Shown: positions 3,127 through 50,508, numbered from the stretch's first letter. The stretch is 64,000 bases of DNA from an uncultured bacterium (GCA_965541585.1 CBEUCH010000014.1:12670-76669); one strand, 5' to 3'. Numbers and translations are program-made. The notes: generated by a model not told the origin, from the sequence alone.

Positions 3127-3959
3127 TGGCGCAGGGGATCTGGCAAAAATTATTAGATCTCGACCGCAGATGGATATATCTCGTCATCGGTATAGTTACT
3201 TTCATACCGATGCTCAGATATATCGGGCTGCCGATCAAGATCACGCCGGAGGTGATAGCGGTTTATGATAGAATAGAATCGCAACCTCCCGGAACAGTAG
3301 TCATGGTACCCATGGAGTTCAGTCCGTCTACAATGGCCGAGCTTGAACCGATGGCCAGGGCGGTCTTGATTCACTGCTTTTCGCGGGATTTGAGGGTCAT
3401 ATCAACAGCGCTGCAGATTGACGGAGTGATTTTGATCGAACAGGTTTTAAGAGAATCGGCGGCGGAGTACGGCAAAAAATATGGCGAAGATTATGTTTTC
3501 CTGGGATATAAACCGTATCCCGAAATGGTCATTTTAGGAATGGGAGAAAATTTCCGCAATAATTTCCCTAAAGACTATTATAATAATGATCTCGACGATT
3601 TGCCGATGATGGCAGGGGTCAATAATTATTCCAGTGTTTCCTTCATTGTAAATATTAACGCCACTTCGGGAGTCGATTACTGGATTAACTATGCTAACGG
3701 CAGCTACGGTGTGCCCCTGGCTCTGGGCGTTACCGCGGTCATCGCCACCGACTATTACGCCTTCCTGCAGTCGGAGCAGATTTTCGGCCTGATGGGCGGG
3801 CTGAAGGGTGCCGCCGAATATGAGAGGCTTATCGGACGACCAAAAGATGTCGCCAATCGCGCCATGACCTCGGTTTCGGTGGCGCACGTATTCATTCTAC
3901 TCTTCATAATCCTGGGTAACGTGGCCTTCTTTGCCGCACGCCGATCGGAACGGAGCTGA
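3123..3959 (+). CDS. hypothetical membrane-anchored protein
   Basis: 278 aa with N- and C-terminal hydrophobic segments. Tightly packed with its neighbours. Confidence 0.5.
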   Translation: MMAQGIWQKLLDLDRRWIYLVIGIVTFIPMLRYIGLPIKITPEVIAVYDRIESQPPGTVVMVPMEFSPSTMAELEPMARAVLIHCFSRDLRVISTALQIDGVILIEQVLRESAAEYGKKYGEDYVFLGYKPYPEMVILGMGENFRNNFPKDYYNNDLDDLPMMAGVNNYSSVSFIVNINATSGVDYWINYANGSYGVPLALGVTAVIATDYYAFLQSEQIFGLMGGLKGAAEYERLIGRPKDVANRAMTSVSVAHVFILLFIILGNVAFFAARRSERS

Positions 3960-36454: not shown

Positions 36455-36572
36455 AGCTGAAATCTAACAGCGGTCGGTGCATCGGTCAAGCGTCCCGCCT
36501 CCTATTTCGGGTAGTTTTTGCTTGACTACAGGGAAGCATCGGCTATTATTATTTTTCGCCGCGGTAAGGCGT

Positions 36573-36644
36573 GGGGGTGTAGCTCAGTGGTAGAGCATCT
36601 GCCTTTTAAGCAGGTGGTCGAAGGTTCAATCCCTTCCACCCTCA
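36573..36644 (+). tRNA. tRNA-Lys (anticodon TTT)
   Basis: Cloverleaf traced by hand: acceptor gggggtg/caccctc, D-arm tagctcagtggtagagca, anticodon loop cttttaa, T-arm ggttcaatccc. CCA not encoded. Confidence 0.8.
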
Positions 36645-36671
36645 TTTGAGATGAGAAAAAGATGTTTCAAT

Positions 36672-36745
36672 GCGCCTTTAGCTCAGCTAGGTAGAGCAGC
36701 TGACTCTTAATCAGGAGGTCGTAGGTTCGATCCCTACAAGGCGCA
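36672..36745 (+). tRNA. tRNA-Lys (anticodon CTT, read by hand; Arg-TCT not fully excluded)
   Basis: Acceptor gcgcctt/aaggcgc, D-arm tagctcagctaggtagagca, anticodon loop ctcttaa, T-arm ggttcgatccc. Confidence 0.7.
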
Positions 36746-36991
36746 TTTTATGATACCACATAATGAAAAATCCGCGCCAGGAATCGGACCGGAACCTCCC
36801 GGATCGTAAGTGTTTATTATTCAGCCAGTTTTATTGTAGTTAACAGTGTAGCCCGTGACGAACCATCCAAATAAGCCAATTCGGGGGATTATTTTGTATA
36901 TGTATCCTTATCTTCAAACTTCCTATTGACATATGGCGAAATTGGAGATAAAAGATAGAATGAGATCAAACTCACGCACTGAGGATTATTG

Positions 36992-40330: not shown

Positions 40331-40501
40331 ATCCGGCAAATCAGATCGCATGATTTTCAGATCCCATGACACCCAAAATCTCATTTATCGCGCCGATTCG
40401 CTGAAACCGGGCGCTTCTATTTTGAGTATATTCCATTGGGATTGGATTGACGGATATACAGCCGATCATTATATTGAATCGGAGTTGTTCTTTGATAACA
40501 T

Positions 40502-40857
40502 GGGGGCGACAGGTTTCGACGGGATGACTGATGTCTGACCTGCGCGTCGAGGTCCCGGTAACCTCGTAAAACAATCGGGAAACCTTACAAGTGCCGACGA
40601 TTATTCGTACGCACTGGCTGCCTAAGACACTGGCGGCTCGTTCTACCTGGATTTGCTTATCGGTCCGGGATAGAGCGTCGATTAGATAAGATAGCGGCAT
40701 AAACCGTCCCCGATTATGTCGCGAAACAAAAGGGGGCTGGACGGGAGGAAAGCCCGGCGATCGGCGTTTCTCCTGTTGAGATTAAATATTCGCCTACGCG
40801 CGTAGACGGTTATTCGGAGGCATTTTCGGACGGGGGTTCGATTCCCCCCGCCTCCAT
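40502..40857 (+). ncRNA. ssrA: transfer-messenger RNA (tmRNA), one-piece
   Basis: 5' end gggggcgacaggtttcgacggg. Internal tag reading frame gcc gac gat tat tcg tac gca ctg gct gcc taa = ADDYSYALAA* at 40592..40624. 3' T-arm/acceptor ggacgggggttcgattccccccgcctcca. Confidence 0.85.
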
Positions 40858-40874
40858 TAATTTGTCTTGACAAT

Positions 40875-41135
40875 ATGATTTATCTTTATGTATTACAGGG
40901 CGAAAAGGGTAAGCGCTATGTTGGTATTACCAACAACTTAGAACGCCGTTTATCTGAACATCGTAGCGGAAAAACTAAGGGCGGACAAATCATAGGTAAG
41001 TTTAAACTACTGCACATTGAGAAATTTGAAGATTATAAAGAAGCTCGGAAACGCGAGGTATTCCTTAAATCAGGAGTTGGCCGTGAGTGGTTAAATCAAG
41101 AATTTCCTCGGACGGGGTCCGCCGAAGGCGGATAA
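40875..41135 (+). CDS. small GIY-YIG nuclease-family protein
   Basis: N-terminus MIYLYVLQGEKGKRYVGITNNLERRLSEH matches the GIY-YIG core. The last ~9 codons are read out of the tmRNA-3'-end repeat, so the native C-terminus is uncertain. Confidence 0.65.
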   Translation: MIYLYVLQGEKGKRYVGITNNLERRLSEHRSGKTKGGQIIGKFKLLHIEKFEDYKEARKREVFLKSGVGREWLNQEFPRTGSAEGG

Positions 41136-41179
41136 AGCTTGGTCGCCTCCGGCGACTTCGATTCCCCCCGCCTCCACCA
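41108..41179 (+). repeat. direct repeat B: copy of the ssrA 3' terminus (with encoded CCA) carrying a 39-nt insertion
   Basis: cggacgggg[tccgccgaaggcggataaagcttggtcgcctccggcgac]ttcgattccccccgcctccacca. Matches 40830..40857 apart from the bracketed insertion. Confidence 0.8.
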
Positions 41180-41518
41180 ATTGCAAGTGCCTATGTTACA
41201 ACAGGATATAGAAACAACTGGCAGAGCATTATTGCCGTGATCCCCCACCTATCATCCAATAACTTTTATGACTAAGAATAACCTAAGACCGTTTTGGGCA
41301 CGATTTGGCCGCACTCTATTTTGCCGATTATGAAACCTAATTAATACTATATTGGAAATAAAGATGCATTTTACGATTTCTTGTTGTATATATAAAAAGT
41401 AATTAGATATTAGAAATATGAAAAGTAAAAGACTTTACCACAGAATTGATGAGGTCTGGCAGGTGCGAGCGATGACGAGGAAGCAACTCGAGGAGAAGAA
41501 ATAGGGATACTTTAACTC

Positions 41519-42529
41519 ATGACTCCCAATGATAAGGCATCGCTCAGCGAAGAGGCTATAGAAAGGCAATATCCTGATATCTATAATTCTCTTATGCCGC
41601 TCCTTCGTAGGTCCCAGCCGGGTTCACTAGACGCGTACTTGGAAACGGTTGCCTGCGACGTGAATATTGAGCAAACTCAAACTAATGCTCATTGTAGATT
41701 CATTGCTTTGGATGGAAACAAGAGAGCACGGGTTAAGGATTTTGTACGATTCATTGGAAAAAAAATTACAGATTTTGCGATTCCGCGTGGTGAGATAAAC
41801 CGTGCTTTGAACGAAGGAGCAAAAACAAGTTCAACAGCCCCAGTAGATAAACTTAGTAAAAAAGCAAGGAACCTTTTTACTCGTTTGCCTAAAAGTGGTG
41901 AAGGAGGAGAGGTTCTGCTTTCAATCTTAGCCGAAACCATCCTTCGCCTGCCTCAGCTGTTTACAAAAATGGTTTTAAAAACCAATGCCAATATGCATGT
42001 TCACGGAAGTGATGCCATTCACTTCGGGATTAACCAATCGAATGGTAGTCTTGCACTGTATTGGGGAGAGTCAAAACTTTATGCAGATGCGGGCGCGGCT
42101 ATTAGAGAATGTTTTACTAGTCTTGCACCATTCCTGTTGGGCGCAGGTGGCAGCGGGGCGGCGCAGGAACGCGACCTGCAACTCATGCGTGATGGGATCG
42201 ATCTAGATGACATCAAACTTGAAAATGCGCTGAAACAATACCTCGATCCGGACAGCACCATGTTTAAACAGTTTGAATACCGGGGTCTATGCCTTGTTGG
42301 ATTTAACTCGGAGGCTTATCCAACATCACCAAACTCACCGGAGGCAAATCAATTAAAACAAAAGATCGAAACGACCTTTGACAATTGCAAAAACCAAATC
42401 CAGAATCGTGTATTAGCAGAGAGAATAGAAACTTTCACGATTGAATTATTCTGTGTTCCCTTCCCAAAGGTTGACGATTTCCGAAGTGCCTTCCGTGAAG
42501 AATTGGGGTTGCCGGATGGGCAAAGCTGA
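41519..42529 (+). CDS. candidate HamA-like protein (possible PD-(D/E)xK nuclease)
   Basis: 336 aa. Segment HVHGSDAIHFGINQSNGSLALYWGESKLY gives a D...E-x-K arrangement. Stop overlaps the downstream start (ATGGGCAAAGCTGA). Low GC. Confidence 0.45.
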   Translation: MTPNDKASLSEEAIERQYPDIYNSLMPLLRRSQPGSLDAYLETVACDVNIEQTQTNAHCRFIALDGNKRARVKDFVRFIGKKITDFAIPRGEINRALNEGAKTSSTAPVDKLSKKARNLFTRLPKSGEGGEVLLSILAETILRLPQLFTKMVLKTNANMHVHGSDAIHFGINQSNGSLALYWGESKLYADAGAAIRECFTSLAPFLLGAGGSGAAQERDLQLMRDGIDLDDIKLENALKQYLDPDSTMFKQFEYRGLCLVGFNSEAYPTSPNSPEANQLKQKIETTFDNCKNQIQNRVLAERIETFTIELFCVPFPKVDDFRSAFREELGLPDGQS

Positions 42530-45119
42530 TTTCCAAGACTGGCTTCTTCAAAATTCGGGTTTTCAAAATCAATATCATCTTTTGATCATCGACTCTGTTG
42601 CTAGCCAATTTCCCAACCTGAAACGAAATGATCATTATGACCAGACAAAGCATGACTGGAATTATTTGTTGTTATGTGCCAGTTTACTTGCGCAGTCGGA
42701 AACTGAGAAGTGTCAAAGTGCTGCCCTTCGAATCTCTCAGTATTGCTTGGAATGTGCAAGTACGTCAGAGGTAGAAAAAGATGCAGCAGCAGTTGTCTTA
42801 GATACTCTGGCGAACCGCCCAGCGATTAAATTAGCAGAAGAGCGAGAGCTTATCCAGCCGGGCTATTCGGATAGAATACCGTTCCCTCTTTTCCAGGAAT
42901 GGACCCGCCATTCTATTGAGAATTCAATCACGTTATCTAATGCCGAAACCATACGGGCGAACAAGTTTCAATGCAGGTTTTGGGAAAGCGTCAAACGCTA
43001 TGATCGGATCAGCATTTCAGCTCCTACATCTGCCGGCAAATCATTCATAATTGGACGTTGGTTGGCTGAATACCTGCGAAAGAATCAAAGGGCATCAATT
43101 ATTTATATTGTGCCAACACGCGCACTTATACAGCAAGTCCAGCGAGATATAAGGGACGTACTCAAATGTGAAGTTATCGAAAACGTAGAGGTTACCACTC
43201 TACCACTGAGAGCATCTTTTAAGGCTGACAGGGCAAACATATTTGTTTTCACCCAAGAACGGTTTCATATCCTCCTTGCAGCGTTCAACAATAATGTGCC
43301 AGTAGATCTGTTGATAATTGATGAAGCTCAGAAGATAGGAGATAATTATCGGGGCGTATTATTGCAACAGGCCATTGAAGCCATCTCTCAAAGAAGACCA
43401 GCAGCTAATTTCCTCTTTTCCAGCCCAATGACGGATAATCCAAAAGTGTTGCTTGAAGATGCCCCTGATGGAGTTTCTCAAGACGCCATCGTAAGTGAAG
43501 ATACTACAGTCAACCAGAATCTTATTTGGGCGTCGCAGGTCCCAAGGAAACCTTGTACTTGGAGTGTTGATTTGATTCTACAAGAAGACGCTGTCGAAAT
43601 AGGTAAAATAGAACTTTCGACAAGTCCGACACATACAAGTAAACGTTTGCCGTTCGTTGCGTTCTCTTTAGGCAACTCAAAAGGGGGAAACATTATTTAC
43701 GTCAACGGCGCTGCCGATGCGGAGAAGACCGCCAAGCAACTCTATGATTTGATCGGAAATGATTCGAACACACCGGGAGATACGGAATTATGCGATCTCA
43801 TCGAACTAATTCGCAAGACTATTCATCGACACTATTCACTTGGAAACGTCATCAGTCGAGGGGTTGCTTTTCACTATGGTAATATGCCGCTCCTTGTCCG
43901 GACAGAAATTGAAAGATTGTTCCGTGCCAACAAGATTAAATACCTGGTATGTACATCAACACTGATTGAAGGCATGAATATGCCGTGCCAAAGCATATTC
44001 GTCCGAGGGCCAACGAAAGGGAAAGGAAATCCTATGACATCAAGTGATTTCTGGAATCTTGCCGGACGCGCCGGACGATGGGGCAAAGAATTTCAGGGTA
44101 ATATTGTTTGTGTCGATCCTCGGAAAGACAATGTATGGAAGAATGGTGCCCCAAAGGGGCGAACGAGGTTCAGGATAAATAGAACAGCGGATGACGTCCT
44201 TTTAAATCAGGAGGAGAAGCTACTCAAATTTATTGATACTGGCACACCACGAAATGAAGCACGTAAGGACCCAAATTTGGAGTATGTATTTTCCTTCCTT
44301 GTCTCATCATACATACGCAACAACGGTATTGTAACTGCACCCTGGGCAAAACGTTATCCTGAAGAGTTTGTTAATAAGCTGGAAGCAAAAATCAAAAGTA
44401 TAATTGAGAGTATTGCTATACCAGAAGAAGTCATCCTGCGGAATCCGGGCATTAGCCCAATCGCAATGAATGATCTTCTTGGATATTTCCATGAGCGGAC
44501 AGCTAATCGTAATGAACCTGTTGAAACGCTGATTCCCGTTCGGGCAGAGAGTGATGATGCATTCGATGAATATGCAAAGATTCTTAACCGAATCAACAAG
44601 TGTCTAGGATACGAGTTTGGCAGTGGAAAACGAGTGCGGCAACTTGCTTTATTGATCGTTGACTGGATGAAAGGCTATCCATTGGCACGGATTATATCTA
44701 GCCGTGAAAGCTATTATGGCTCCAGCGATTTGCCAGCATTGATAAGGAATACCATGAATGATGTGGAAGAATATGCACGTTTTCATGCGCCAAAGTATCT
44801 TGCATGCTATGTGGATATTCTAAAGGTGCATTTAGCCAAAAATGAGCGCCATGATCTTATTGAAAGCTTGCTGGAGCTTAATGTTCTCCTTGAGTTTGGC
44901 GTTTCACATAAGACTCAGCTTTCACTTATGGGATTAGGGCTGAGTCGGACGAGCGTTATTACAATATCAGAGTTCATCGCTGAAGACTCACTAAATGAAT
45001 CTGAATGTTTGCAGTGGTTAAAAGAAAATGATTGGATGACACAAGATATGCCTGAAATCATCAAACGAGAAGTAGGAAATCTACTAACGAGCCGCCAAGA
45101 GGTAGGCACAGAGGAATAG
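42441..45119 (+). CDS. SF2 helicase (DEAQ-box). Candidate HamB-like partner. Probable true start at 42516 (MGKADF)
   Basis: Walker A ISAPTSAGKSF, motif II LLIIDEAQKIGD, further helicase-like blocks (VPTRALIQQV, FHYGNMPLLVRTEIE, CTSTLIEGMNMP), and a long C-terminal domain. Confidence 0.6.
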   Translation: MNYSVFPSQRLTISEVPSVKNWGCRMGKADFQDWLLQNSGFQNQYHLLIIDSVASQFPNLKRNDHYDQTKHDWNYLLLCASLLAQSETEKCQSAALRISQYCLECASTSEVEKDAAAVVLDTLANRPAIKLAEERELIQPGYSDRIPFPLFQEWTRHSIENSITLSNAETIRANKFQCRFWESVKRYDRISISAPTSAGKSFIIGRWLAEYLRKNQRASIIYIVPTRALIQQVQRDIRDVLKCEVIENVEVTTLPLRASFKADRANIFVFTQERFHILLAAFNNNVPVDLLIIDEAQKIGDNYRGVLLQQAIEAISQRRPAANFLFSSPMTDNPKVLLEDAPDGVSQDAIVSEDTTVNQNLIWASQVPRKPCTWSVDLILQEDAVEIGKIELSTSPTHTSKRLPFVAFSLGNSKGGNIIYVNGAADAEKTAKQLYDLIGNDSNTPGDTELCDLIELIRKTIHRHYSLGNVISRGVAFHYGNMPLLVRTEIERLFRANKIKYLVCTSTLIEGMNMPCQSIFVRGPTKGKGNPMTSSDFWNLAGRAGRWGKEFQGNIVCVDPRKDNVWKNGAPKGRTRFRINRTADDVLLNQEEKLLKFIDTGTPRNEARKDPNLEYVFSFLVSSYIRNNGIVTAPWAKRYPEEFVNKLEAKIKSIIESIAIPEEVILRNPGISPIAMNDLLGYFHERTANRNEPVETLIPVRAESDDAFDEYAKILNRINKCLGYEFGSGKRVRQLALLIVDWMKGYPLARIISSRESYYGSSDLPALIRNTMNDVEEYARFHAPKYLACYVDILKVHLAKNERHDLIESLLELNVLLEFGVSHKTQLSLMGLGLSRTSVITISEFIAEDSLNESECLQWLKENDWMTQDMPEIIKREVGNLLTSRQEVGTEE

Positions 45120-45161
45120 TTGAAAGGCAAAGTGTAAGAGCTCGGTGTGCTTTGGTTATTT

Positions 45162-45258
45162 GCGCGTAGACTGTTATTCGGAGGCATTTTCGGACGGGGT
45201 CCGCCGAAGGCGGATAAAGCTTGGTCGCCTCCGGCGACTTCGATTCCCCCCGCCTCCA
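45162..45258 (+). repeat. direct repeat C: longer copy of the ssrA 3' region with the same 39-nt insertion
   Basis: cgcgtagactgttattcggaggcattttcggacgggg[39-nt insertion identical to repeat B]ttcgattccccccgcctcca. The 5' 37 nt match 40801..40837. Confidence 0.8.
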
Positions 45259-45510
45259 GTAAAGTATCTTATTGCATAGTAACGGGCTATACCCGGACGG
45301 GGGATCCGTACCCCGAATTTTGAGGTTTTTTCCCCCTTTAATCCTCAATAACTTAAAATAACTTGAAACCTAAATAGTCACAATTTCGTAAAAAAATAAG
45401 GTCGGGCCGAAGAAAGAGATTTGCTATTCCTACAGAAATTGGCCCTGTCAAATAGTACTTAGCAAATCAGAGGTGACAACCTGAAGAATGAAAGAAAGGC
45501 GGAAAAAGCA

Positions 45511-45882
45511 ATGAAATTAATGACAAAGTCGATTTTGACTTTAACAGCAATGGCTCTCATCTTTACAATCTTCTCATGCGCTTCTGCCAAGTTCATCTCT
45601 ACCGGATCATCATATTCTCCCCGAGCTGATGACTGTCCAATCGAGGTTTTTAGCTCGAAGCTGCCCGACCAAGAGTATGAGGAACTAGGCGTCATCGAGG
45701 GCGAGGGATCCTTAGGTTTCGATACCTTGGAGAAGGTTCTGCCCAAAATGAAGCGAGAGGCATGTAAGGCGGGAGGGGACGCCATCATCCTCATGTCCAG
45801 TCAGAAGTCCGTAGACATCTACAAGGACGGCAGCGATGATCAACTCAACGTCATGGCTACTGTAGTTCGGTGGAAGGAATAG
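45511..45882 (+). CDS. small lipoprotein
   Basis: Leader ..LIFTIFSCASA with lipobox-like FSC. 123 aa. Confidence 0.5.
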   Translation: MKLMTKSILTLTAMALIFTIFSCASAKFISTGSSYSPRADDCPIEVFSSKLPDQEYEELGVIEGEGSLGFDTLEKVLPKMKREACKAGGDAIILMSSQKSVDIYKDGSDDQLNVMATVVRWKE

Positions 45883-46073
45883 ATGCGGTCAGGTTCTGGC
45901 GGGGTTGGCTGCATCTTTCTAATTTTCCTATATCCCCTCATAACTTAGAATAACAGAAAACCTATATTGTCCCAATTTGAAGAAACCGGATTTAGCTTGT
46001 AATTATCAAAACCGTCTCTTAAGATTTTAACGGTTCTGTTAAAAAGGTTCTGACGACGTACAAGGAAATTCAA

Positions 46074-47063
46074 ATGAAAGCGATTGTATACACAAAATAC
46101 GGACCACCTGATGTTCTTCAGCTCAAGGAGGTAGAAAAACCTACTCCTAAGGACGATGAAGTCTTGATAAAGGTTCATGCGGCGTCCGCAAATGCATATG
46201 ACTGGCATATGCTGAGAGCTGACCCGTTCTTGGTCCGCCTAATGGGCGGGGGGCTACTAAAACCAAAACACAAGATACTCGGAGTTGACGTAGCAGGGCG
46301 GGTTGAAGCGGTTGGCAGAAACGTAAAGCATTTTCAGCCAGGTGATGAGGTATTCGGAGACGTATCCGGGTGTGGTTGCGGCGGTTTTGCCGAGTATGTA
46401 TGTGCTCGCGAAAATGCATTGGCGTTGAAACCGGCCAGTATGTCATTCGACGGAGCAGCGGTGGTGCCTTTGGCGGCAATCACCGCCCTGCAGGGTCTTC
46501 GCGATAAAGGACAGATTCAGCCAGGGCAGAAAGTTTTGATTAATGGTGCGTCTGGTGGCGTGGGTACGTTTGCGGTGCAGATTGCCAAATCGTTCGGGGC
46601 TGAAGTCACTGCCGTATGCAGCATGAGGAATTTGGACATGGCACGCTCGATTGGTGCAGACCAGGTCATTGATTACACTCAAGAAGATTTCACCAAAAGC
46701 AGGCAGCGTTATGACCTGATTCTTGCTGCTAACGGATATCATCCGATTTTAGATTACAAGCGTGCATTAAGTCCCAGGGGGATTTATGTCATGGCCGGAG
46801 GTTCCATGGCTCAATTCTACCAGGCTATGCTCCTGGGACCATGGATTTCAATGACAGGGAGTAAGAAAATGGGTTTCTTTGTGATGAAACCAAACAAAAA
46901 GGATTTGGTTTTTATGACAGAGCTTCTTGAAGCTGGCAAAGTAAAACCTGTTATAGATAGACGTTACAAGTTAAGTGAGGTTCCTGAAGCTATCCGGTAT
47001 CTTGAAGAAGGACACGCCCGAGGAAAAGTAGTCATAAATTTGGAACATAATAATAAAACCTGA
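46074..47063 (+). CDS. zinc-type alcohol dehydrogenase / quinone oxidoreductase (MDR family)
   Basis: MKAIVYTKYGPPDVLQLKEVEKPTP N-terminus and NAD(P) motif LINGASGGVGTFAVQIAK. Confidence 0.85.
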   Translation: MKAIVYTKYGPPDVLQLKEVEKPTPKDDEVLIKVHAASANAYDWHMLRADPFLVRLMGGGLLKPKHKILGVDVAGRVEAVGRNVKHFQPGDEVFGDVSGCGCGGFAEYVCARENALALKPASMSFDGAAVVPLAAITALQGLRDKGQIQPGQKVLINGASGGVGTFAVQIAKSFGAEVTAVCSMRNLDMARSIGADQVIDYTQEDFTKSRQRYDLILAANGYHPILDYKRALSPRGIYVMAGGSMAQFYQAMLLGPWISMTGSKKMGFFVMKPNKKDLVFMTELLEAGKVKPVIDRRYKLSEVPEAIRYLEEGHARGKVVINLEHNNKT

Positions 47064-47162
47064 CAAAGCGTTGCAGTGGACGGCGGAGAGCTGTGGTTTT
47101 TAATAATGTTTTTTAAAACCGTCACAATTTGGTCACACCACCTGTTAGCTTGTTGCTAGACA

Positions 47163-47200
47163 ATAGGGATAATGGGGTTCGATTCCCCACGTTCCCATAT
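47163..47200 (+). repeat. orphan tRNA 3'-half fragment (T-arm plus acceptor), possible att-site remnant
   Basis: ..atggggttcgattccccacgttccca has no matching 5' half upstream. Differs from both tRNA-Lys genes. Confidence 0.45.
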
Positions 47201-47433
47201 GATGCAATTGTTTATTTATAGGCGGATTCCAGTTAAGCATGGCCTCAACAATAATCGGTAGTTACGAACCAGGAATTGCAGCAAATCCCTACGCATCATA
47301 GGCCACAAACAACATTCTTGACAAAATTATCAATATTTATTATTTTTACCAAAACAGGCGTCACAGTATTGTGCCTGCCTTGTCTTCGAAGTCGATTAAT
47401 GCAACTGCTCAAAACCCCAAACAAGGAGAGATC

Positions 47434-50400
47434 ATGTTTTCTAGTGGAAAGTCTGTGTCCGGCTTAATTGGGGCACTGCTGTTTTCAGCAACCATGTCGA
47501 CGATAGGCGCTCAAGCCGAAAACGATGTCGCAGGCGACGTAAAATCATCTGGTTTGATTACTTCGGTACCACGGACTATGTCTTATCAGGGGTATCTAAA
47601 AGACGCGGGGGGGCTACCCGTATCAGACACTCTCGAAATCACTTTCCGTATCTATGATGTCGAATCAGGGGGAAGCGCCCTATGGACGGAAACGGTTGCC
47701 GCCGTATCAATCATTGACGGTAACTTCACCGCCATCGTCGGAGAAACCACTCCGATAAACTTGAGCTTCGATGTCGACTACTGGATGTCGTTGCAGGTGG
47801 AGGGCGATCCCCTGGAGATGGACCCGAGACTGAAACTTCATATGTCGGCTTACGCGGCACGAAGCGACACGACCGATTATGCCCTCAACTCCGATTTGCT
47901 GGATGGTCTCGACTCGGGCGATTTTGCCGGTTCCGCTCATGACCATGACGCGGATTATGTCAACGAGGGGCAGGCAAATTCCGTTACAGGCGCTATGGTA
48001 GTTGATGGCACGGTACAGTTTGGCGACATTGGCCAGAACGGCGCCTCCGCAGGCCAGATTATGAAATGGAATGGTTCGGCCTGGATTGCGGATAATGATG
48101 AGACTGGACCAGGGGGTGGCAGTGGCTGGGTCGATGATGGTAATTATATCAGGTTAGAGACGGGCACTGATTCTGTCGGAATAGGCACGGCCACGCCATC
48201 GGAAAAGCTGGAGGTTGCAGGGAGTATTCTGGTAACCGATAAAGCCACCATCGGTCCAAGCAACTCAAATACCGGTGCGAACGCGTTTGTGGCAGGTTTA
48301 GCCAATACGGTAAGCGGAGATTGGACTACAATCGGCGGTGGTCGGATAAACACGGCAAGCGGCCATGATGCGGTGATCGGAGGCGGTCGAGGCAACACTG
48401 CCAGCAGCTCATATTATGCCACGGTCGGCGGCGGCAACGAAAACACCGCCGGCGCTGGTGGCGCTACTATAAGTGGCGGAAGATTTAATCTGTGCAACGC
48501 GGATTACGCAACTGTCGGCGGAGGTTATGCCGATACTGCCAGCGGGGCCTCTTCCACAATCGGCGGAGGTTGGAGTAATATCGCTAGTGGAGTAGAAGCT
48601 ACAGTCAGCGGAGGTCAGATGAATATCGCCGCCGGCCAACAGGCATCGATCGGCGGTGGAAGTCAAAACTCCGCAAGCGGTTTCAGAGCTACGGTCGGTG
48701 GAGGTGTGGGAAATTTTGCTACCGGAGACAATGCAACGATCGCTGGCGGCTTCGGTAACCACGCAACCGCGAATGGTGCGACAGTAGGGGGCGGCAGTAC
48801 GAACACCGCCAGCGGTACCGCCGCCACTGTTCCGGGCGGGAATATGAATGAAGCTGCCGGTATTTACTCTTTTGCCGCCGGCCGTCGAGCTAAAGCTAAT
48901 CACATTGGAGCATTTGTGTGGGCAGATCAGACCAACTCGGATTTTGCCTCCACCGGTGTCGATCAATTCCTCATTCGTGCGTCAGGGGGTGTTGGAATCG
49001 GTACGACGAGTCCAGCATCGGAATTGGATGTTGCCGGCACCATCCAGGCTACCGGATTTATGATGACCACCGGTGCCTCCGACGGATATATTCTCACCTC
49101 CGATGCCTCGGGATCAGGATCTTGGCAATCTCCGGCCCCCAGCGGCGGCTGGATAGATGATGGAAATGCTGTCAGGCTGGAGACAGTTAACGATTCGGTT
49201 GGTATTGGAACTGCTACGCCGTCGGAAAAATTGGATGTTTCAGGTAATATCCTGGTGAGCGGAACGGCGACTATCGGAACGGGACATACCAACACAGGCA
49301 CGAGCGCTTTCTTAGCGGGGGAGAACAATACGGCCAGTGGAAATTACACCGCTGTTGGTGGAGGTCTGAATAACACCTCAAGTGCGAATTACGCGACAGT
49401 CAGCGGCGGCTGGAATAACAACGCCGGAGAGATAAACGCAACAGTCGGTGGCGGTTGGGACAATGCTGCCAATGGGCAATACTCAGTTGTCGCCGGAGGA
49501 AGGGAGAACACCGCCGGTATAGATTTCGCCTCGGTTGGTGGCGGAGCTTATAACTTCGCGGGCATCAGCAGCTACGCTACTGTCGCCGGGGGGTATGCCG
49601 ACACCGCCAGCGGAGGCTACGCCACAGTTAGCGGCGGTCAAAGTAACATCGCCAGCGAGCAAAATGCGGCCGTGGGTGGCGGTAGTAACAATTCTGCCAG
49701 CGGTACGTATGCGACCGTTGCCGGCGGTCGAGACAATATCAGTTCAGGGCAAAATGCGACGATTGGCGGCGGTACTACTAACACGGCCAACGGCGGTAGT
49801 GCTACAGTTGCCGGTGGTGGAAATAATATTTCCAGCGGTTCGTCCAGCACAATCGGTGGAGGAGACAGTAATACCTCCGGTGCCAGTTCCAGTACTGTAG
49901 GCGGCGGAAAGAGAAACAATGCCAGCGGATATGTCAGCACAATCGGTGGTGGTCAGGATAACATAGCCAGTAACCAATATGCTACTGTGCCGGGTGGATA
50001 TTTAAATGAGGCGACAGGTATTTATTCCTTCGCGGCCGGGCGTCGGGCTAAAGCCAATCATGATGGGGCTTTCGTATGGGGCGACCGGACCAACGCGGAT
50101 ATAACTTCCTCCGCTGCAGATGAATTCAAAATACGCGCCTCCGGCGGAACCTATCTATACTCTAACTCCAGTCTCACCGCAGGTGTAACGCTGGCGGCCG
50201 GAGCTTCATCCTGGAGTTCCGTTTCCGACAGCACGCTAAAGCGTAATATCAGACAGGTAAACGGTGAAGAAATTCTCGAAAAACTGGCACAGTTACCCAT
50301 CAGCCAGTGGAGCTATAAAGCTCAGGATGAAAGCATTGAACATATCGGCCCGATGGCACAGGATTTCTATGAGATCTTCGGGCTCGGCGCCGACAACAAA

Positions 50401-50508
50401 ACGATCTCTACGATAGATCCGTCGGGGATAGCTCTAGCCGGTATACAAGCGTTATTGGATGAAATCGAACTATTGAAAGCCCGTATCGCCGAGCTTGAAG
50501 GTAAGTAA
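47434..50508 (+). CDS. large exported repeat protein: tandemly duplicated ~320 aa fibre-like module with Gly-rich short repeats, plus C-terminal S74 intramolecular-chaperone (endosialidase/tail-fibre type) domain
   Basis: Strong SD aaggagag before ATG 47434. Signal peptide. Repeated ..ATVGGG.xN.ASG.. units. Two copies of GW(V/I)DDGN..RLET..DSVGIGTATPSEKL(E/D)V... . C-terminus SDSTLKRNI...IELLKARIAELEGK. Confidence 0.65.
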   Translation: MFSSGKSVSGLIGALLFSATMSTIGAQAENDVAGDVKSSGLITSVPRTMSYQGYLKDAGGLPVSDTLEITFRIYDVESGGSALWTETVAAVSIIDGNFTAIVGETTPINLSFDVDYWMSLQVEGDPLEMDPRLKLHMSAYAARSDTTDYALNSDLLDGLDSGDFAGSAHDHDADYVNEGQANSVTGAMVVDGTVQFGDIGQNGASAGQIMKWNGSAWIADNDETGPGGGSGWVDDGNYIRLETGTDSVGIGTATPSEKLEVAGSILVTDKATIGPSNSNTGANAFVAGLANTVSGDWTTIGGGRINTASGHDAVIGGGRGNTASSSYYATVGGGNENTAGAGGATISGGRFNLCNADYATVGGGYADTASGASSTIGGGWSNIASGVEATVSGGQMNIAAGQQASIGGGSQNSASGFRATVGGGVGNFATGDNATIAGGFGNHATANGATVGGGSTNTASGTAATVPGGNMNEAAGIYSFAAGRRAKANHIGAFVWADQTNSDFASTGVDQFLIRASGGVGIGTTSPASELDVAGTIQATGFMMTTGASDGYILTSDASGSGSWQSPAPSGGWIDDGNAVRLETVNDSVGIGTATPSEKLDVSGNILVSGTATIGTGHTNTGTSAFLAGENNTASGNYTAVGGGLNNTSSANYATVSGGWNNNAGEINATVGGGWDNAANGQYSVVAGGRENTAGIDFASVGGGAYNFAGISSYATVAGGYADTASGGYATVSGGQSNIASEQNAAVGGGSNNSASGTYATVAGGRDNISSGQNATIGGGTTNTANGGSATVAGGGNNISSGSSSTIGGGDSNTSGASSSTVGGGKRNNASGYVSTIGGGQDNIASNQYATVPGGYLNEATGIYSFAAGRRAKANHDGAFVWGDRTNADITSSAADEFKIRASGGTYLYSNSSLTAGVTLAAGASSWSSVSDSTLKRNIRQVNGEEILEKLAQLPISQWSYKAQDESIEHIGPMAQDFYEIFGLGADNKTISTIDPSGIALAGIQALLDEIELLKARIAELEGK

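What the first reader, a model, noticed from the sequence alone, without database searches (positions are those of the whole stretch)
40502..45258. Composite island at the 3' end of ssrA carrying a GIY-YIG ORF and a translationally coupled nuclease-like + SF2-helicase pair (Hachiman-like candidate defence system)
Directly after the tmRNA gene, the ssrA 3' terminus is present three times, at 40822..40857, 41108..41179 and 45162..45258. These copies delimit a ~250 bp segment encoding an 86 aa GIY-YIG protein and a ~4 kb segment of clearly lower GC. The ~4 kb segment holds two co-oriented genes whose stop and start overlap (ATGGGCAAAGCTGA). The first (336 aa) has a D...ExK arrangement (GSDAIHF..17 aa..YWGESKLY) compatible with a PD-(D/E)xK nuclease. 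The second (~870 aa) has Walker A APTSAGKS and motif II IIDEAQ of an SF2 helicase, plus a long C-terminal domain. A small nuclease followed by a large helicase, carried on a tmRNA-integrated islet, matches Hachiman (HamA DUF1837 / HamB) architecture. I cannot confirm family membership by eye, so it may be a divergent or undescribed nuclease-helicase system. No integrase lies inside the repeats, which is unusual for an ssrA island.
Basis: partly seen in the sequence, partly recalled or inferred. Interest (0 to 1): 0.8.

Follow-up and report, generated by a model that had tools for sequence, protein, structure and literature searches.

The report
Hachiman defence islet beside tmRNA gene
A standard two-gene Hachiman anti-phage system sits in a small insertion without an integrase next to the tmRNA gene; the repeats that frame it come from a tiny GIY-YIG nuclease cassette that also sits beside tRNA and tmRNA genes in many bacterial phyla, an association I could not find described.

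Summary
The window contains an intact tmRNA gene (40502-40856), an 86-aa GIY-YIG ORF, two further copies of the ssrA 3' end, and a 3,985-bp low-GC segment with two overlapping genes and no integrase.

The gene pair is a canonical Hachiman system, not a divergent one. HamA matches Pfam PF08878 at 4.7e-59 and a PADLOC HamA1 model at 1.8e-115. Its predicted fold significantly matches only solved HamA chains, and D165/E184/K186 are invariant. HamB matches a PADLOC HamB1 model over its full length at 1095 bits.

A strain 97% identical across the ssrA-GIY region carries a different 0.6-kb cargo at the same slot, so the islet is strain-variable.

The unexpected part is the repeats. Copies 2 and 3 are ssrA 3' ends in which a 39-nt block of two hairpins replaces one base of the T-arm. 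That block belongs to the GIY-YIG cassette.

The cassette has the same layout in relatives: intact gene, ORF, then a hairpin-disrupted duplicate. In 61 of 80 related loci from about ten phyla a co-oriented tRNA or tmRNA gene lies beside the ORF. I found no description of this. Hachiman here is ordinary; the cassette deserves follow-up.

The parts
40502..40856 (+). Intact tmRNA gene (ssrA), tag ADDYSYALAA. The last 59 nt (40798-40856) are the part that is repeated downstream.
   Evidence: ARAGORN; Rfam RF00023 192.6 bits over model 1-374. A sigma-70-like promoter match lies at 40447-40475; this is weak evidence.
40875..41135 (+). 86-aa minimal GIY-YIG nuclease ORF of the UPF0213/Slx1-like class. 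The last ~9 codons read through a copy of the 5' T-stem and hairpin 1.
   Evidence: Pfam PF01541 3.1e-14. Y5, G17, R25, H29 and E61 are invariant in 29 homologs. The AF2 model has pLDDT 84.7. Foldseek top hits are 1zg2 and 1ywl (UPF0213), then Slx1 and the UvrC N-terminal domain.
41108..41176 (+). ssrA 3' pseudo-copy 2, the 3' end of the GIY-YIG cassette. Layout: t5 (TCGGACGGGG, 41108-41117), 39-nt hairpin block (41118-41156; H1 41117-41133, H3 41141-41157), then T-loop to acceptor end (41157-41176), followed by CCA.
   Evidence: the repeat finder D1 and D2; sequence. The same layout occurs in L001, L002, L004, L005, L009, L013 and others. Hairpins are supported by compensatory changes.
41177..45161 (+). 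3,985-bp cargo islet: a 342-nt non-coding leader plus hamA-hamB. It has no integrase and the lowest GC of the window.
   Evidence: Composition. It is replaced by an unrelated ~580-bp cargo in the 97%-identical relative L001.
41519..42529 (+). hamA: Hachiman effector nuclease (DUF1837) with D165...E184-S-K186.
   Evidence: Pfam HamA 4.7e-59; PADLOC HamA1 1.8e-115. Invariant residues. AF2 model gives Foldseek hits 8zue_A, 8vx9_A and 8vxy_A, and no other hit at E<=0.001.
42516..45119 (+). hamB: Hachiman Ski2-like SF2 helicase, 867 aa, with Walker A APTSAGKS and motif II DEAQ. Its start overlaps the hamA stop by 14 nt.
   Evidence: PADLOC HamB1 E=0, 1095.5 bits, residues 1-860 against profile 1-861. 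Pfam DEAD 4.7e-18 and Helicase_C 5.1e-07. PDB 9wh1_B 4.9e-50 and 8vx9_B HamB 1e-10. The same gene lengths occur in L085, whose ORF coordinates also give a 14-nt overlap.
45162..45258 (+). ssrA 3' pseudo-copy 3. Layout: 38 nt matching ssrA 40798-40835 (1 mismatch), the same 39-nt hairpin block (45200-45238), then the 20-nt T-loop/acceptor end, followed by the native chromosomal flank. It has no ORF.
   Evidence: the repeat finder D1 and D3; sequence. The homologous copy in L001 (1041-1170) extends 71 nt into ssrA.

Best explanation
Two unrelated elements are stacked after an intact tmRNA gene.

(1) A resident ~320-bp GIY-YIG cassette lies next to ssrA. It consists of a bare 86-aa GIY-YIG nuclease gene followed by a duplicate of the ssrA T-arm and acceptor end. 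In that duplicate two conserved 7-bp hairpins replace base 53 of the T stem. This layout is the standard form of a widespread cassette found beside tRNA and tmRNA genes. I infer that it is a selfish free-standing endonuclease element.

(2) A 3,985-bp horizontally acquired islet carries a complete, canonical type I Hachiman operon (hamA-hamB). Following the published mechanism, the HamAB complex surveys DNA. When a free 3' single-stranded end enters the HamB helicase, ATP hydrolysis activates the HamA D-ExK nuclease, which degrades DNA and aborts infection (PMC12278908).

The islet sits exactly between the cassette's pseudo-3' end (copy 2) and a second hairpin-bearing pseudo-copy (copy 3), which form a perfect 69-nt direct repeat. 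I infer that it entered by recombination at this repeated ssrA-like sequence. The route was either an integrase acting in trans or homologous recombination of a looped-out circle or incoming DNA. I also infer that copy 3 acquired the hairpin block by conversion from the cassette.

Shown: gene identities, repeat anatomy, strain variability, and the cassette's association with tRNA and tmRNA genes. Inferred: the route of insertion, nuclease activity and defence activity.
For: Hachiman identity.

Operon layout: one search shows the same gene lengths in a 70%-identical homolog (L085), whose ORF coordinates also give a 14-nt overlap.

Foreign origin of the islet:
- It has the lowest GC of the window and GC3 of 0.40.
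- In L001 the ssrA-GIY-copy 2 region is 97% identical, copy 3 plus downstream is 94%, and a region further downstream is 98%. Yet L001 has a different ~580-bp cargo between copy 2 and copy 3.
- The nearest HamA relatives sit in unrelated contexts, one next to a BREX PglZ gene.

Cassette resident and conserved:
- It occurs downstream of ssrA in L001, L002, L004 and L005, with the T-stem copy covarying with the host ssrA.
- 61 of 80 related loci have a co-oriented tRNA or tmRNA gene within 450 nt. Of the 39 loci with the gene upstream, 30 have a second copy of the last 17 nt after the ORF.
- The hairpins are conserved with compensatory changes.

Order of insertion: the 12 nt after copy 1 resemble the native flank after copy 3 (88% over 32 nt) more than the flank after copy 2 (78%). 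This fits a cargo inserted later between copy 2 and the native flank.

Recent insertion: the 69-nt repeat is perfect in the window, while the two copies in L001 have diverged.

Integrase-type islands use this site in relatives: L002 carries an integrase fragment 1.5 kb downstream of the cassette.
Against: - No integrase, excision junction or circular form was observed, so the route of insertion is unproven.
- A plain integrase crossover cannot put the 39-nt block into both attL and attR unless attP already carried it or a later conversion occurred.
- If the GIY-YIG enzyme cuts intact T-arms, the functional ssrA just upstream should also be a target. How it escapes is unexplained.
- No activity was tested for any of the three proteins.
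- No sigma-70-like promoter was found for hamA.
- The window's own contig could not be retrieved from the collections, so all comparisons rest on metagenome-assembled relatives.
Confidence: 0.8

Rival explanations
1. A classical tmRNA-gene genomic island. A tyrosine integrase inserted the Hachiman element at the ssrA 3' end, the direct repeats are attL and attR, and the integrase gene was later deleted.
For: - The left junction falls exactly at the end of the ssrA-like sequence, and the island side supplies CCA.
- The right repeat begins inside ssrA at different points in two strains, 38 versus 71 nt, as expected for attP identity blocks of different length.
- L002 keeps an integrase fragment near the same site.
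- L005 has a short plain third ssrA copy ~1.1 kb downstream.
Against: - There is no integrase in the islet or within about 10 kb, nor in the 580-bp cargo of L001.
- The islet lies after the pseudo-copy, not after the functional ssrA.
- Both repeats carry the 39-nt hairpin block, which a single crossover between a normal attP and this site cannot produce.
Confidence: 0.35
2. Endonuclease-driven hitch-hiking. The GIY-YIG enzyme cuts naive ssrA T-arms in recipient cells. Repair from a donor chromosome then copies everything between the ssrA body and the native flank, so Hachiman travels as cargo of a homing element.
For: - The cassette is conserved, spans many phyla and is linked to several different RNA genes, as expected for a mobile endonuclease.
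- Copy 3 looks like a T-arm converted to the hairpin-bearing form without the ORF.
- Similar ORF-less copies occur in L068 and L038.
- Phage SegB, a GIY-YIG endonuclease next to tRNA genes, drives co-conversion and tandem amplification of neighbouring DNA (PMC2330249, PMC13096335).
Against: - Cleavage was not tested.
- The protein has no DNA-binding domain.
- An intact T-arm persists in the element-bearing chromosome.
- Cargo slots of this kind were seen only in this lineage within the +/-3 kb examined.
Confidence: 0.2
3. Assembly artefact. The repeats caused a metagenome assembler to join unrelated contigs, so the Hachiman segment is not really next to ssrA.
For: The window probably derives from a metagenome-assembled genome, judging from its relatives, which are all MAG or metagenome contigs. 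It contains a 69-nt exact repeat.
Against: - 69 nt is shorter than typical reads.
- An independent assembly (L001) shows the same arrangement of ssrA, GIY-YIG, copy 2, cargo, copy 3 and flank, with different cargo and a longer copy 3.
- Both flanks of the islet are collinear with L001.
Confidence: 0.05
4. The GIY-YIG ORF is the homing endonuclease of a group I intron in the tmRNA T-loop, the known 'intron form' of ssrA.
For: The interruption lies in the T-arm, where tmRNA group I introns are known to sit (PMC11915505). GIY-YIG enzymes are common intron passengers.
Against: - No group I intron or any other Rfam family was found at E<=1 in 40800-41560 or 45100-45520.
- A complete uninterrupted tmRNA precedes the ORF.
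- Only about 60 nt of the segment are non-coding.
- The tmRNA database paper reports only LAGLIDADG genes in such introns.
Confidence: 0.02

Closest known systems
Hachiman type I (HamA DUF1837 nuclease plus HamB Ski2-like helicase; E. coli ECOR31 HamAB, PDB 8vx9; PMC12278908, PMC11914072)
   Same: Two-gene hamA-hamB operon, full-length matches to HamA1 and HamB1 profiles, the HamA fold, a D-E(X)K motif, helicase motifs I and II, and no third gene.
   Different: Only 13-15% sequence identity to the solved HamA chains. HamB is 867 aa against 1174 aa in ECOR31. The host is an uncultured lineage, probably Zixibacteria-like. Activity is untested.
AbpAB / HamA-C-terminal-domain systems (PDB 9wh1, 8zue)
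   Same: HamB here is closest in sequence to chain 9wh1_B (4.9e-50). Its partner chain is annotated as anti-bacteriophage protein A / HamA C-terminal domain.
   Different: HamA here is 336 aa without the N-terminal extension of AbpA (528-531 aa). It keeps the catalytic D-ExK residues, which PMC12278908 reports as inactive in AbpA.
Integrase-mediated genomic islands in tmRNA/tRNA genes (my own knowledge of Williams 2002; tmRNA database paper PMC11915505)
   Same: Position at the ssrA 3' end, direct repeats of the gene's 3' part, foreign composition, and strain-variable content.
   Different: No integrase. Insertion is after a pseudo-copy rather than the functional gene. Both repeats carry a 39-nt hairpin block foreign to ssrA.
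Phage T4/T6 SegB, a free-standing GIY-YIG homing endonuclease in the tRNA gene cluster (PMC2330249, PMC13096335)
   Same: A GIY-YIG gene beside tRNA genes. The 3' end of the gene shares sequence with a neighbouring tRNA. It is associated with local duplication and co-conversion.
   Different: SegB is a phage protein with DNA-binding modules. The ORF here is a bare 86-aa catalytic domain of the UPF0213/Slx1-like class. It is chromosomal, is followed by two conserved hairpins, and is nested in a duplication of its presumed target.
Group I introns in the tmRNA T-loop
   Same: The same region of the gene is affected.
   Different: No ribozyme, and the functional gene is uninterrupted.
Cis-mobilisable elements (CIMEs: att-flanked, integrase-less remnants of integrative elements; my own knowledge)
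   Same: Small cargo flanked by att-like direct repeats without a recombinase gene.
   Different: No cognate integrative element is known here, and the repeats derive from a nuclease cassette.

Membership tests
Hachiman | HamA carries the DUF1837/HamA domain | tested here: met
   Pfam PF08878 4.7e-59 over profile 1-230/230. PADLOC HamA1 PDLC00163 1.8e-115 over profile 9-312/314.
Hachiman | HamA has the conserved D-E(X)K nuclease motif | tested here: met
   D165, E184 and K186 are invariant in 16 homologs of 44-80% identity. The motif is defined in PMC12278908. Correspondence to E138/K140 of ECOR31 HamA is inferred, not aligned residue by residue.
Hachiman | HamA adopts the fold of solved HamA | tested here: met
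   AF2 model with pLDDT 77 and pTM 0.80. The only Foldseek PDB hits at E<=0.001 are 8zue_A, 8vx9_A and 8vxy_A, each with probability 1.00.
Hachiman | HamB is an SF2 (Ski2-like) helicase with motifs I and II and a helicase C domain, matching HamB over its full length | tested here: met
   PADLOC HamB1 PDLC00186 1095.5 bits, residues 1-860 against profile 1-861/864. Pfam DEAD, ResIII and Helicase_C. APTSAGKS and IIDEAQ are in the sequence. PDB hits are Ski2/Hel308/Brr2-type helicases and HamB 8vx9_B.
Hachiman | hamA and hamB are adjacent and co-oriented as one operon | tested here: met
   14-nt overlap at 42516-42529. L085 has the same gene lengths and, from its ORF coordinates, the same overlap.
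Hachiman | Protects against phage through DNA-damage-triggered DNA degradation | not testable with these tools
   Needs phage challenge assays and biochemistry.
Integrase-mediated tmRNA genomic island | Direct repeats of the ssrA 3' end flank the element | tested here: met
   Perfect 69-nt repeat at 41108-41176 and 45190-45258. It includes a 39-nt block that is not ssrA sequence.
Integrase-mediated tmRNA genomic island | The element encodes a site-specific recombinase | tested here: not met
   The only ORFs above 100 aa in 41177-45161 are hamA and hamB. None of the ten flanking ORFs scanned has an integrase domain.
Integrase-mediated tmRNA genomic island | Absent or different in close relatives, with deviant composition | tested here: met
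   L001 has other cargo at the same slot. The islet GC of 0.429 is the window minimum.
Free-standing GIY-YIG homing endonuclease gene | GIY-YIG catalytic domain with conserved Tyr, Tyr, Arg, His and Glu | tested here: met
   Pfam 3.1e-14. Y5, R25, H29 and E61 are invariant and Y15 is conserved in at least 90% of sequences. GIY-YIG fold confirmed.
Free-standing GIY-YIG homing endonuclease gene | A separate DNA-binding domain gives site specificity, as in I-TevI and the Seg proteins | tested here: not met
   The protein is 86 aa and consists of the catalytic domain only. Residues 82-86 are disordered. I-TevI ranks only 12th in the fold search.
Free-standing GIY-YIG homing endonuclease gene | Sporadic distribution next to a conserved target gene, with the target disrupted in the element-bearing allele | tested here: inconclusive
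   61 of 80 loci are adjacent to a tRNA or tmRNA gene and the duplicate copy is disrupted by hairpins. However, an intact copy of the presumed target remains beside the ORF, and no empty allele was retrieved.
Free-standing GIY-YIG homing endonuclease gene | Cleaves the naive allele and is copied into it | not testable with these tools
   Needs cleavage and homing assays.
tmRNA group I intron form | A group I ribozyme core lies between the two halves of the T-loop | tested here: not met
   No RF00028 hit or other family at E<=1. An intact tmRNA lies upstream.
UPF0213 / prokaryotic Slx1-like minimal GIY-YIG proteins | Stand-alone ~80-100 aa GIY-YIG domain with the closest fold to UPF0213 and Slx1 | tested here: met
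   Foldseek hits 1zg2 (BH0048, 30% identity), 1ywl (EF2693) and Slx1 7cq2/6seh. The class is described in PMC1564403.

The most novel reading that the evidence does not exclude
The 86-aa GIY-YIG ORF with its two hairpins may represent an undescribed class of minimal selfish elements spanning many phyla. The proposal has four parts:
- The elements insert at a fixed point of the T-arm of tRNA and tmRNA genes, between positions 52 and 54. A sister lineage inserts in the D-arm/anticodon region.
- They keep the host gene intact by duplicating the target.
- They mark the spare copy with conserved hairpins.
- They exploit the gene's strong promoter.

The spare copies would then serve as secondary landing sites that need no resident integrase, and defence cargo such as this Hachiman operon accumulates there and is exchanged between strains.
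Probability: 0.4. Interest if true: 0.75.

Novelty: new variant of a known kind. Interest (0 to 1): 0.5.

Why it matters
On its own, the Hachiman operon is one more instance of a characterised defence system in an uncultured lineage. It is useful for cataloguing and little else.

The repeats point to something broader. A bare GIY-YIG nuclease gene sits beside tRNA and tmRNA genes in Zixibacteria, Planctomycetota, Verrucomicrobiota, Desulfobacterota, Bacteroidota, CPR and other groups. It always has a hairpin-interrupted duplicate of the gene end.

If this is a mobile element, several things would follow:
- The stand-alone UPF0213/Slx1-like GIY-YIG proteins examined here, a class with no reported tRNA link, would gain a proposed role.
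- Many pseudo-tRNA fragments and contig breaks at tRNA and tmRNA genes would be explained.
- It would show a way in which tRNA and tmRNA loci become integration hot spots without a resident integrase.
- It would provide a very small, testable system for structure- or sequence-directed DNA cutting.

Tried and rejected
- **Group I intron reading of the GIY-YIG segment:** rejected. No ribozyme was found.
- **Hairpins as a dispersed REP-like repeat:** rejected for this window. The CCGCC..GGCGG and TCGCC..GGCGA motifs occur only in copies 2 and 3, apart from two chance-level sites for each pattern elsewhere.
- **Exact look-ups of the window's GIY-YIG and HamA proteins:** nothing on record. The organism could not be named. 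The nearest named relatives of the ssrA-GIY segment are Zixibacteria MAGs.
- **Exact search of the 39-nt block plus T-loop in metagenome contigs:** 0 hits.
- **HamB relatives in metagenome contigs:** 3 loci, none next to a tRNA or tmRNA gene. The one long contig (L085) has no integrase. They did not help explain the insertion route.
- **Sequence search of HamA against PDB:** no hit by phmmer and only a weak profile hit. Settled by the fold search instead.
- **Cargo ORFs of relatives (L001 166 aa; L005 109 and 181 aa; L002 149 and 214 aa):** no Pfam or PADLOC hits, and no PHROG hit for the one tested (L001). I cannot say these slots are defence-specific.
- **Leader and small ORF upstream of hamA:** the 28-aa ORF 41418-41504 and the 342-nt leader are not conserved upstream of related hamA genes.
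- **Viral contigs:** only 5 weak GIY-YIG hits, so phages are not an evident vector.
- **Promoter and terminator scan:** counts are at the level of shuffled sequence.
- **Broad alignment A1:** The narrower A2 was used instead.
- **RNA versus DNA role for the hairpins:** undecided. The outer pair is G-T in about 90% of sequences, but internal G-T and A-C mismatches are about equally rare.

Full report
**1. What is in the sequence**

ARAGORN and Rfam both call a complete tmRNA gene at 40502-40856 (tag ADDYSYALAA; RF00023, 192.6 bits, full model). Repeat analysis and direct reading confirm three copies of the ssrA 3' end.
- Copy 1 is the true end of the gene.
- Copy 2 (41108-41176) and copy 3 (45190-45258) are a perfect 69-nt direct repeat.
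- Copy 3 continues leftwards to 45162, matching ssrA 40798-40835 at 37/38.

After TCGGACGGGG, a 39-nt block (TCCGCCGAAGGCGGATAAAGCTTGGTCGCCTCCGGCGAC) takes the place of the last G of the 5' strand of the T stem. The sequence then resumes with TTCGATTCCCCCCGCCTCCA.

Between copies 1 and 2 lies an 86-aa ORF (40875-41135) with a GIY-YIG domain (Pfam 3.1e-14). Between copies 2 and 3 lie 3,985 bp with two genes whose stop and start overlap by 14 nt (ATGGGCAAAGCTGA at 42516-42529).

The segment has GC 0.429, the lowest of any window of that size in the 64 kb (mean 0.485, sd 0.023). GC3 is 0.40 against 0.5-0.6 for most neighbours. No integrase domain was found in the islet or among the ten flanking ORFs scanned, which span about 7 kb upstream and 9 kb downstream.

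**2. The gene pair is canonical Hachiman**

The 336-aa protein:
- It matches Pfam HamA (PF08878) at 4.7e-59 over the whole profile, and PADLOC HamA1 at 1.8e-115.
- In an alignment with 15 homologs of 44-80% identity, D165, E184 and K186 are invariant. This is the D-E(X)K motif that Tuck et al. identified in HamA and inactivated with an E138A/K140A double mutant (PMC12278908).
- An AlphaFold model (pLDDT 77, pTM 0.80) finds only the three solved HamA chains as significant PDB matches (8zue_A, 8vx9_A, 8vxy_A).

The 867-aa protein, read from the ATG at 42516:
- It aligns end to end with PADLOC HamB1 (1095.5 bits).
- It has DEAD, ResIII and Helicase_C domains.
- It carries APTSAGKS and IIDEAQ.
- It matches Ski2/Hel308-type helicases and solved HamB in PDB.

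A 70%-identical homolog pair in another metagenome has the same gene lengths, and its ORF coordinates give the same 14-nt overlap (L085). There is no third gene. A 28-aa ORF in the leader is not conserved.

The pair therefore meets every defining feature of Hachiman that can be tested in silico. The expected mechanism is the published one. HamAB scans DNA; entry of a 3' single-stranded end into HamB triggers ATP hydrolysis and activates HamA, which degrades DNA (PMC12278908). Activity here is inferred.

**3. The islet is strain-variable cargo**

The closest relative I could retrieve is L001 (ENA ERZ26800074). blastn identities are:
- 97% across ssrA, GIY-YIG and copy 2;
- 94% across copy 3 plus the downstream lipoprotein gene;
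- 98% further downstream.

Between copy 2 and copy 3, L001 has only about 580 bp with an unrelated 166-aa ORF. Its copy 3 reaches 71 nt into ssrA instead of 38 nt, then has the same 39-nt block (1 mismatch) and the same right flank (GTAAAGTATC...).

So the slot between the two hairpin-bearing pseudo-copies holds different cargo in two near-identical strains, and neither cargo has an integrase.

Other observations on the site and on hamA relatives:
- The nearest HamA relatives elsewhere are in unrelated neighbourhoods, one directly after a BREX PglZ gene (L088).
- In L002, a more distant relative with the same ssrA-GIY arrangement, a 94-aa integrase fragment lies 1.5 kb downstream.
- In L005 a short plain third ssrA copy lies 1.1 kb downstream.
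- In two Phycisphaerae loci, 1.3-2 kb of other DNA sits between the intact tRNA-Glu and the GIY-YIG ORF.

The surroundings of this cassette are thus a recurrent insertion site.

**4. The repeats belong to a GIY-YIG cassette that is general**

Close homologs of the 86-aa protein are mostly 85-86 aa, and many end in ...R-T-G/R-x-A-x-G-G.

In every relative with enough flanking sequence, the gene follows a complete ssrA. It is followed by the same structure:
- about 10 nt copying the 5' T-stem region, which covaries with the host's own tmRNA (GGACGCGG in hosts with a GCGGG/CCCGC stem);
- hairpin H1 (G-YCCGCC-nnn-GGCGGR-T), with the stop codon TAA at its 3' edge;
- AAAGC, then sometimes a variable middle hairpin;
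- GCTT, then hairpin H3 (G-TNCGCC-nnn-GGCGNA-T);
- the T-loop and acceptor end, and often some of the gene's downstream flank.

A scan of one genome per GTDB species found at least 547 loci encoding relatives. Among the best 80:
- ARAGORN calls a co-oriented tRNA or tmRNA gene within 450 nt in 61. Most are closer than 110 nt.
- Rfam adds three more: tmRNA ends at contig starts in L031 and L038, and an intron-containing tRNA in L084.
- Most of the rest have the ORF within a few hundred nt of a contig end.

By my rough estimate, chance adjacency would be about 1%. This figure is an inference, not a computed control.

There are two layouts:
- In 39 loci the intact gene is upstream: tmRNA, or tRNA-Glu, Ser, Pro, Val, Ala, His, Lys or Met. 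In 30 of these a second copy of the last 17 nt follows the ORF.
- In 22 loci (tRNA-Leu, Arg or Pro; Bacteroidota, CPR, Opitutaceae) the ORF precedes the intact tRNA. It is itself preceded by a 5' fragment of that tRNA, interrupted by GC-rich palindromes in the D-arm/anticodon region.

Further findings on the cassette:
- Tandem cassettes occur in L053 and L083.
- H1 and H3 show compensatory substitutions. There are 13 and 21 sequence-by-pair cells changed on both sides, and covariation scores of 0.227 and 0.291 against 0.125 and 0.071 in shuffles (0/500 each). The H3 set was selected for pairing, so its percentage paired is circular.
- The protein is a bare GIY-YIG domain. Its closest folds are the UPF0213 proteins BH0048 and EF2693, then Slx1 and the UvrC N-terminal domain, with I-TevI far lower.
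- In a low-resolution tree, proteins group by host and target. The tmRNA-linked ones appear in at least five places among tRNA-linked ones. The window's protein groups with three other tmRNA-linked ones.
- Hits in viral contigs are rare.

**5. How it probably works**

Shown:
- The cassette's anatomy and its fixed junction at the end of the 5' T-stem strand.
- Its association with tRNA and tmRNA genes.
- Its conservation across phyla.

Inferred:
- It is a selfish free-standing endonuclease element that uses the promoter of the RNA gene. No terminator-like site lies between ssrA and the ORF on the + strand.
- The layout is what a single crossover would give. The donor would be [ORF, t5, H1, H3, T-loop to flank], recombining with the target gene within the T-loop-to-flank segment. 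That leaves an intact gene upstream and a disrupted duplicate downstream.
- A two-sided conversion using the short arms on either side of the hairpins would copy in only the hairpin block. Copy 3 has exactly that form, as do ORF-less copies in L068 and L038.

For the Hachiman islet, the perfect 69-nt repeat is what recombination at that sequence would create. The two copies have diverged slightly in L001. The event could be site-specific, by an integrase supplied in trans, or homologous, from a looped-out circle or incoming DNA.

The 12 nt after copy 1 resemble the native flank after copy 3 more than the flank after copy 2. This suggests that copy 2 once abutted that flank and the cargo came later.

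Unexplained:
- How the functional T-arm upstream escapes a nuclease that would target T-arms.
- Whether the hairpins act in DNA or RNA.

**6. Comparison with what is known**

Hachiman is well characterised, so this is a new member and nothing more.

For the cassette, eight full-text searches and the papers I opened turned up no description of small GIY-YIG genes nested in duplicated tRNA or tmRNA ends (search). One of those searches concerned Hachiman itself.
- The 2025 tmRNA database paper lists only standard, intron and permuted gene forms, and reports LAGLIDADG genes in tmRNA introns.
- The 2006 survey of the GIY-YIG superfamily describes prokaryotic stand-alone Slx1-like domains without linking them to tRNA genes.
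- The closest precedent is phage SegB. It is a GIY-YIG endonuclease in the T-even tRNA cluster that cuts tRNA-gene DNA. It drives tandem tRNA-segB amplification through microhomology between the tRNA 5' end and the segB 3' end.

The literature library is incomplete, so prior description cannot be excluded.

**7. Verdict**

The Hachiman call is right, but the system is ordinary rather than divergent. The 'composite island' is better described as a canonical Hachiman islet, without an integrase, lodged in a cargo slot. That slot is framed by the hairpin-marked pseudo-ends of a resident GIY-YIG cassette.

Interest is low for Hachiman itself and moderate to high for the cassette. Overall interest is 0.5.

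Noticed in passing
L054-L083 (for example L064 2940-3310, L054 2850-3330, L053 2850-3770): A second layout of the same GIY-YIG family occurs in Bacteroidota, CPR and Opitutaceae. The ORF precedes an intact tRNA-Arg, Leu or Pro, sometimes overlapping its first bases. It is preceded by a 5' fragment of that tRNA interrupted by GC palindromes such as CCTGCCTGCCGGCAGGCAGG. The upstream flank with a TTGACA box is duplicated in L053.
   Followed up: partly
L084 3001-3495: In an Omnitrophota MAG the GIY-YIG ORF lies directly upstream of a tRNA that contains a group I intron (RF00028, 82.7 bits, 3261-3495).
   Followed up: no
window 46059-47215 versus L001 1973-5488: There is a second strain-variable slot just downstream. 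The window has a zinc-type alcohol dehydrogenase gene (46074-47063), where the 97%-related strain has about 3.5 kb with MauE/DoxX, hemerythrin and ABM-domain genes. The flanks are 94-98% identical.
   Followed up: no
L028 2850-3330; L038 141-347; L068 2900-2989; L048 40-150: ORF-less, hairpin-bearing pseudo-copies of the ssrA 3' end also occur upstream of the GIY-YIG ORF in other phyla. In L028 no intact tmRNA was found within 3 kb, so the cassette there appears orphaned.
   Followed up: partly
L029 1745-3000; L020 968-3000: In two Phycisphaerae MAGs, 1.3-2 kb of other DNA (a 243-aa ORF on the opposite strand in L029) separates the intact tRNA-Glu from the GIY-YIG ORF and its pseudo-copy. Cargo can therefore also lodge on the other side of the cassette.
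   Followed up: partly
L005 3314-4474: A Zixibacteria MAG has a 1.1-kb segment between the cassette's pseudo-copy and a short plain third ssrA end. It holds two overlapping ORFs (109 and 181 aa) with no Pfam or PADLOC hit. This two-gene module is of unknown function.
   Followed up: partly
L088 1-9001: The closest retrievable HamA relative (79% identity, GCA_025450675) sits immediately after a PglZ (BREX) gene and a 268-aa ORF, in what looks like a defence island.
   Followed up: no
PDB 9wh1 chain B: The best solved-structure match to HamB (4.9e-50) is deposited under the name 'DNA polymerase theta (Helicase domain only)'. Its partner chain is annotated as anti-bacteriophage protein A / HamA C-terminal domain, so the deposited name looks misleading.
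   Followed up: no
window 36572-36746: Two tandem tRNA-Lys genes (TTT and CTT anticodons) lie 3.8 kb upstream of ssrA and carry no GIY-YIG cassette or hairpin block. Related cassettes do occur at tRNA-Lys in other phyla (L045, L049, L073).
   Followed up: no
window 47371-50508: A 1045-aa repeat-rich secreted protein is 98% identical at the DNA level to the L001 gene annotated with a Peptidase_S74 domain. It has the highest GC of the region (about 0.55).
   Followed up: no
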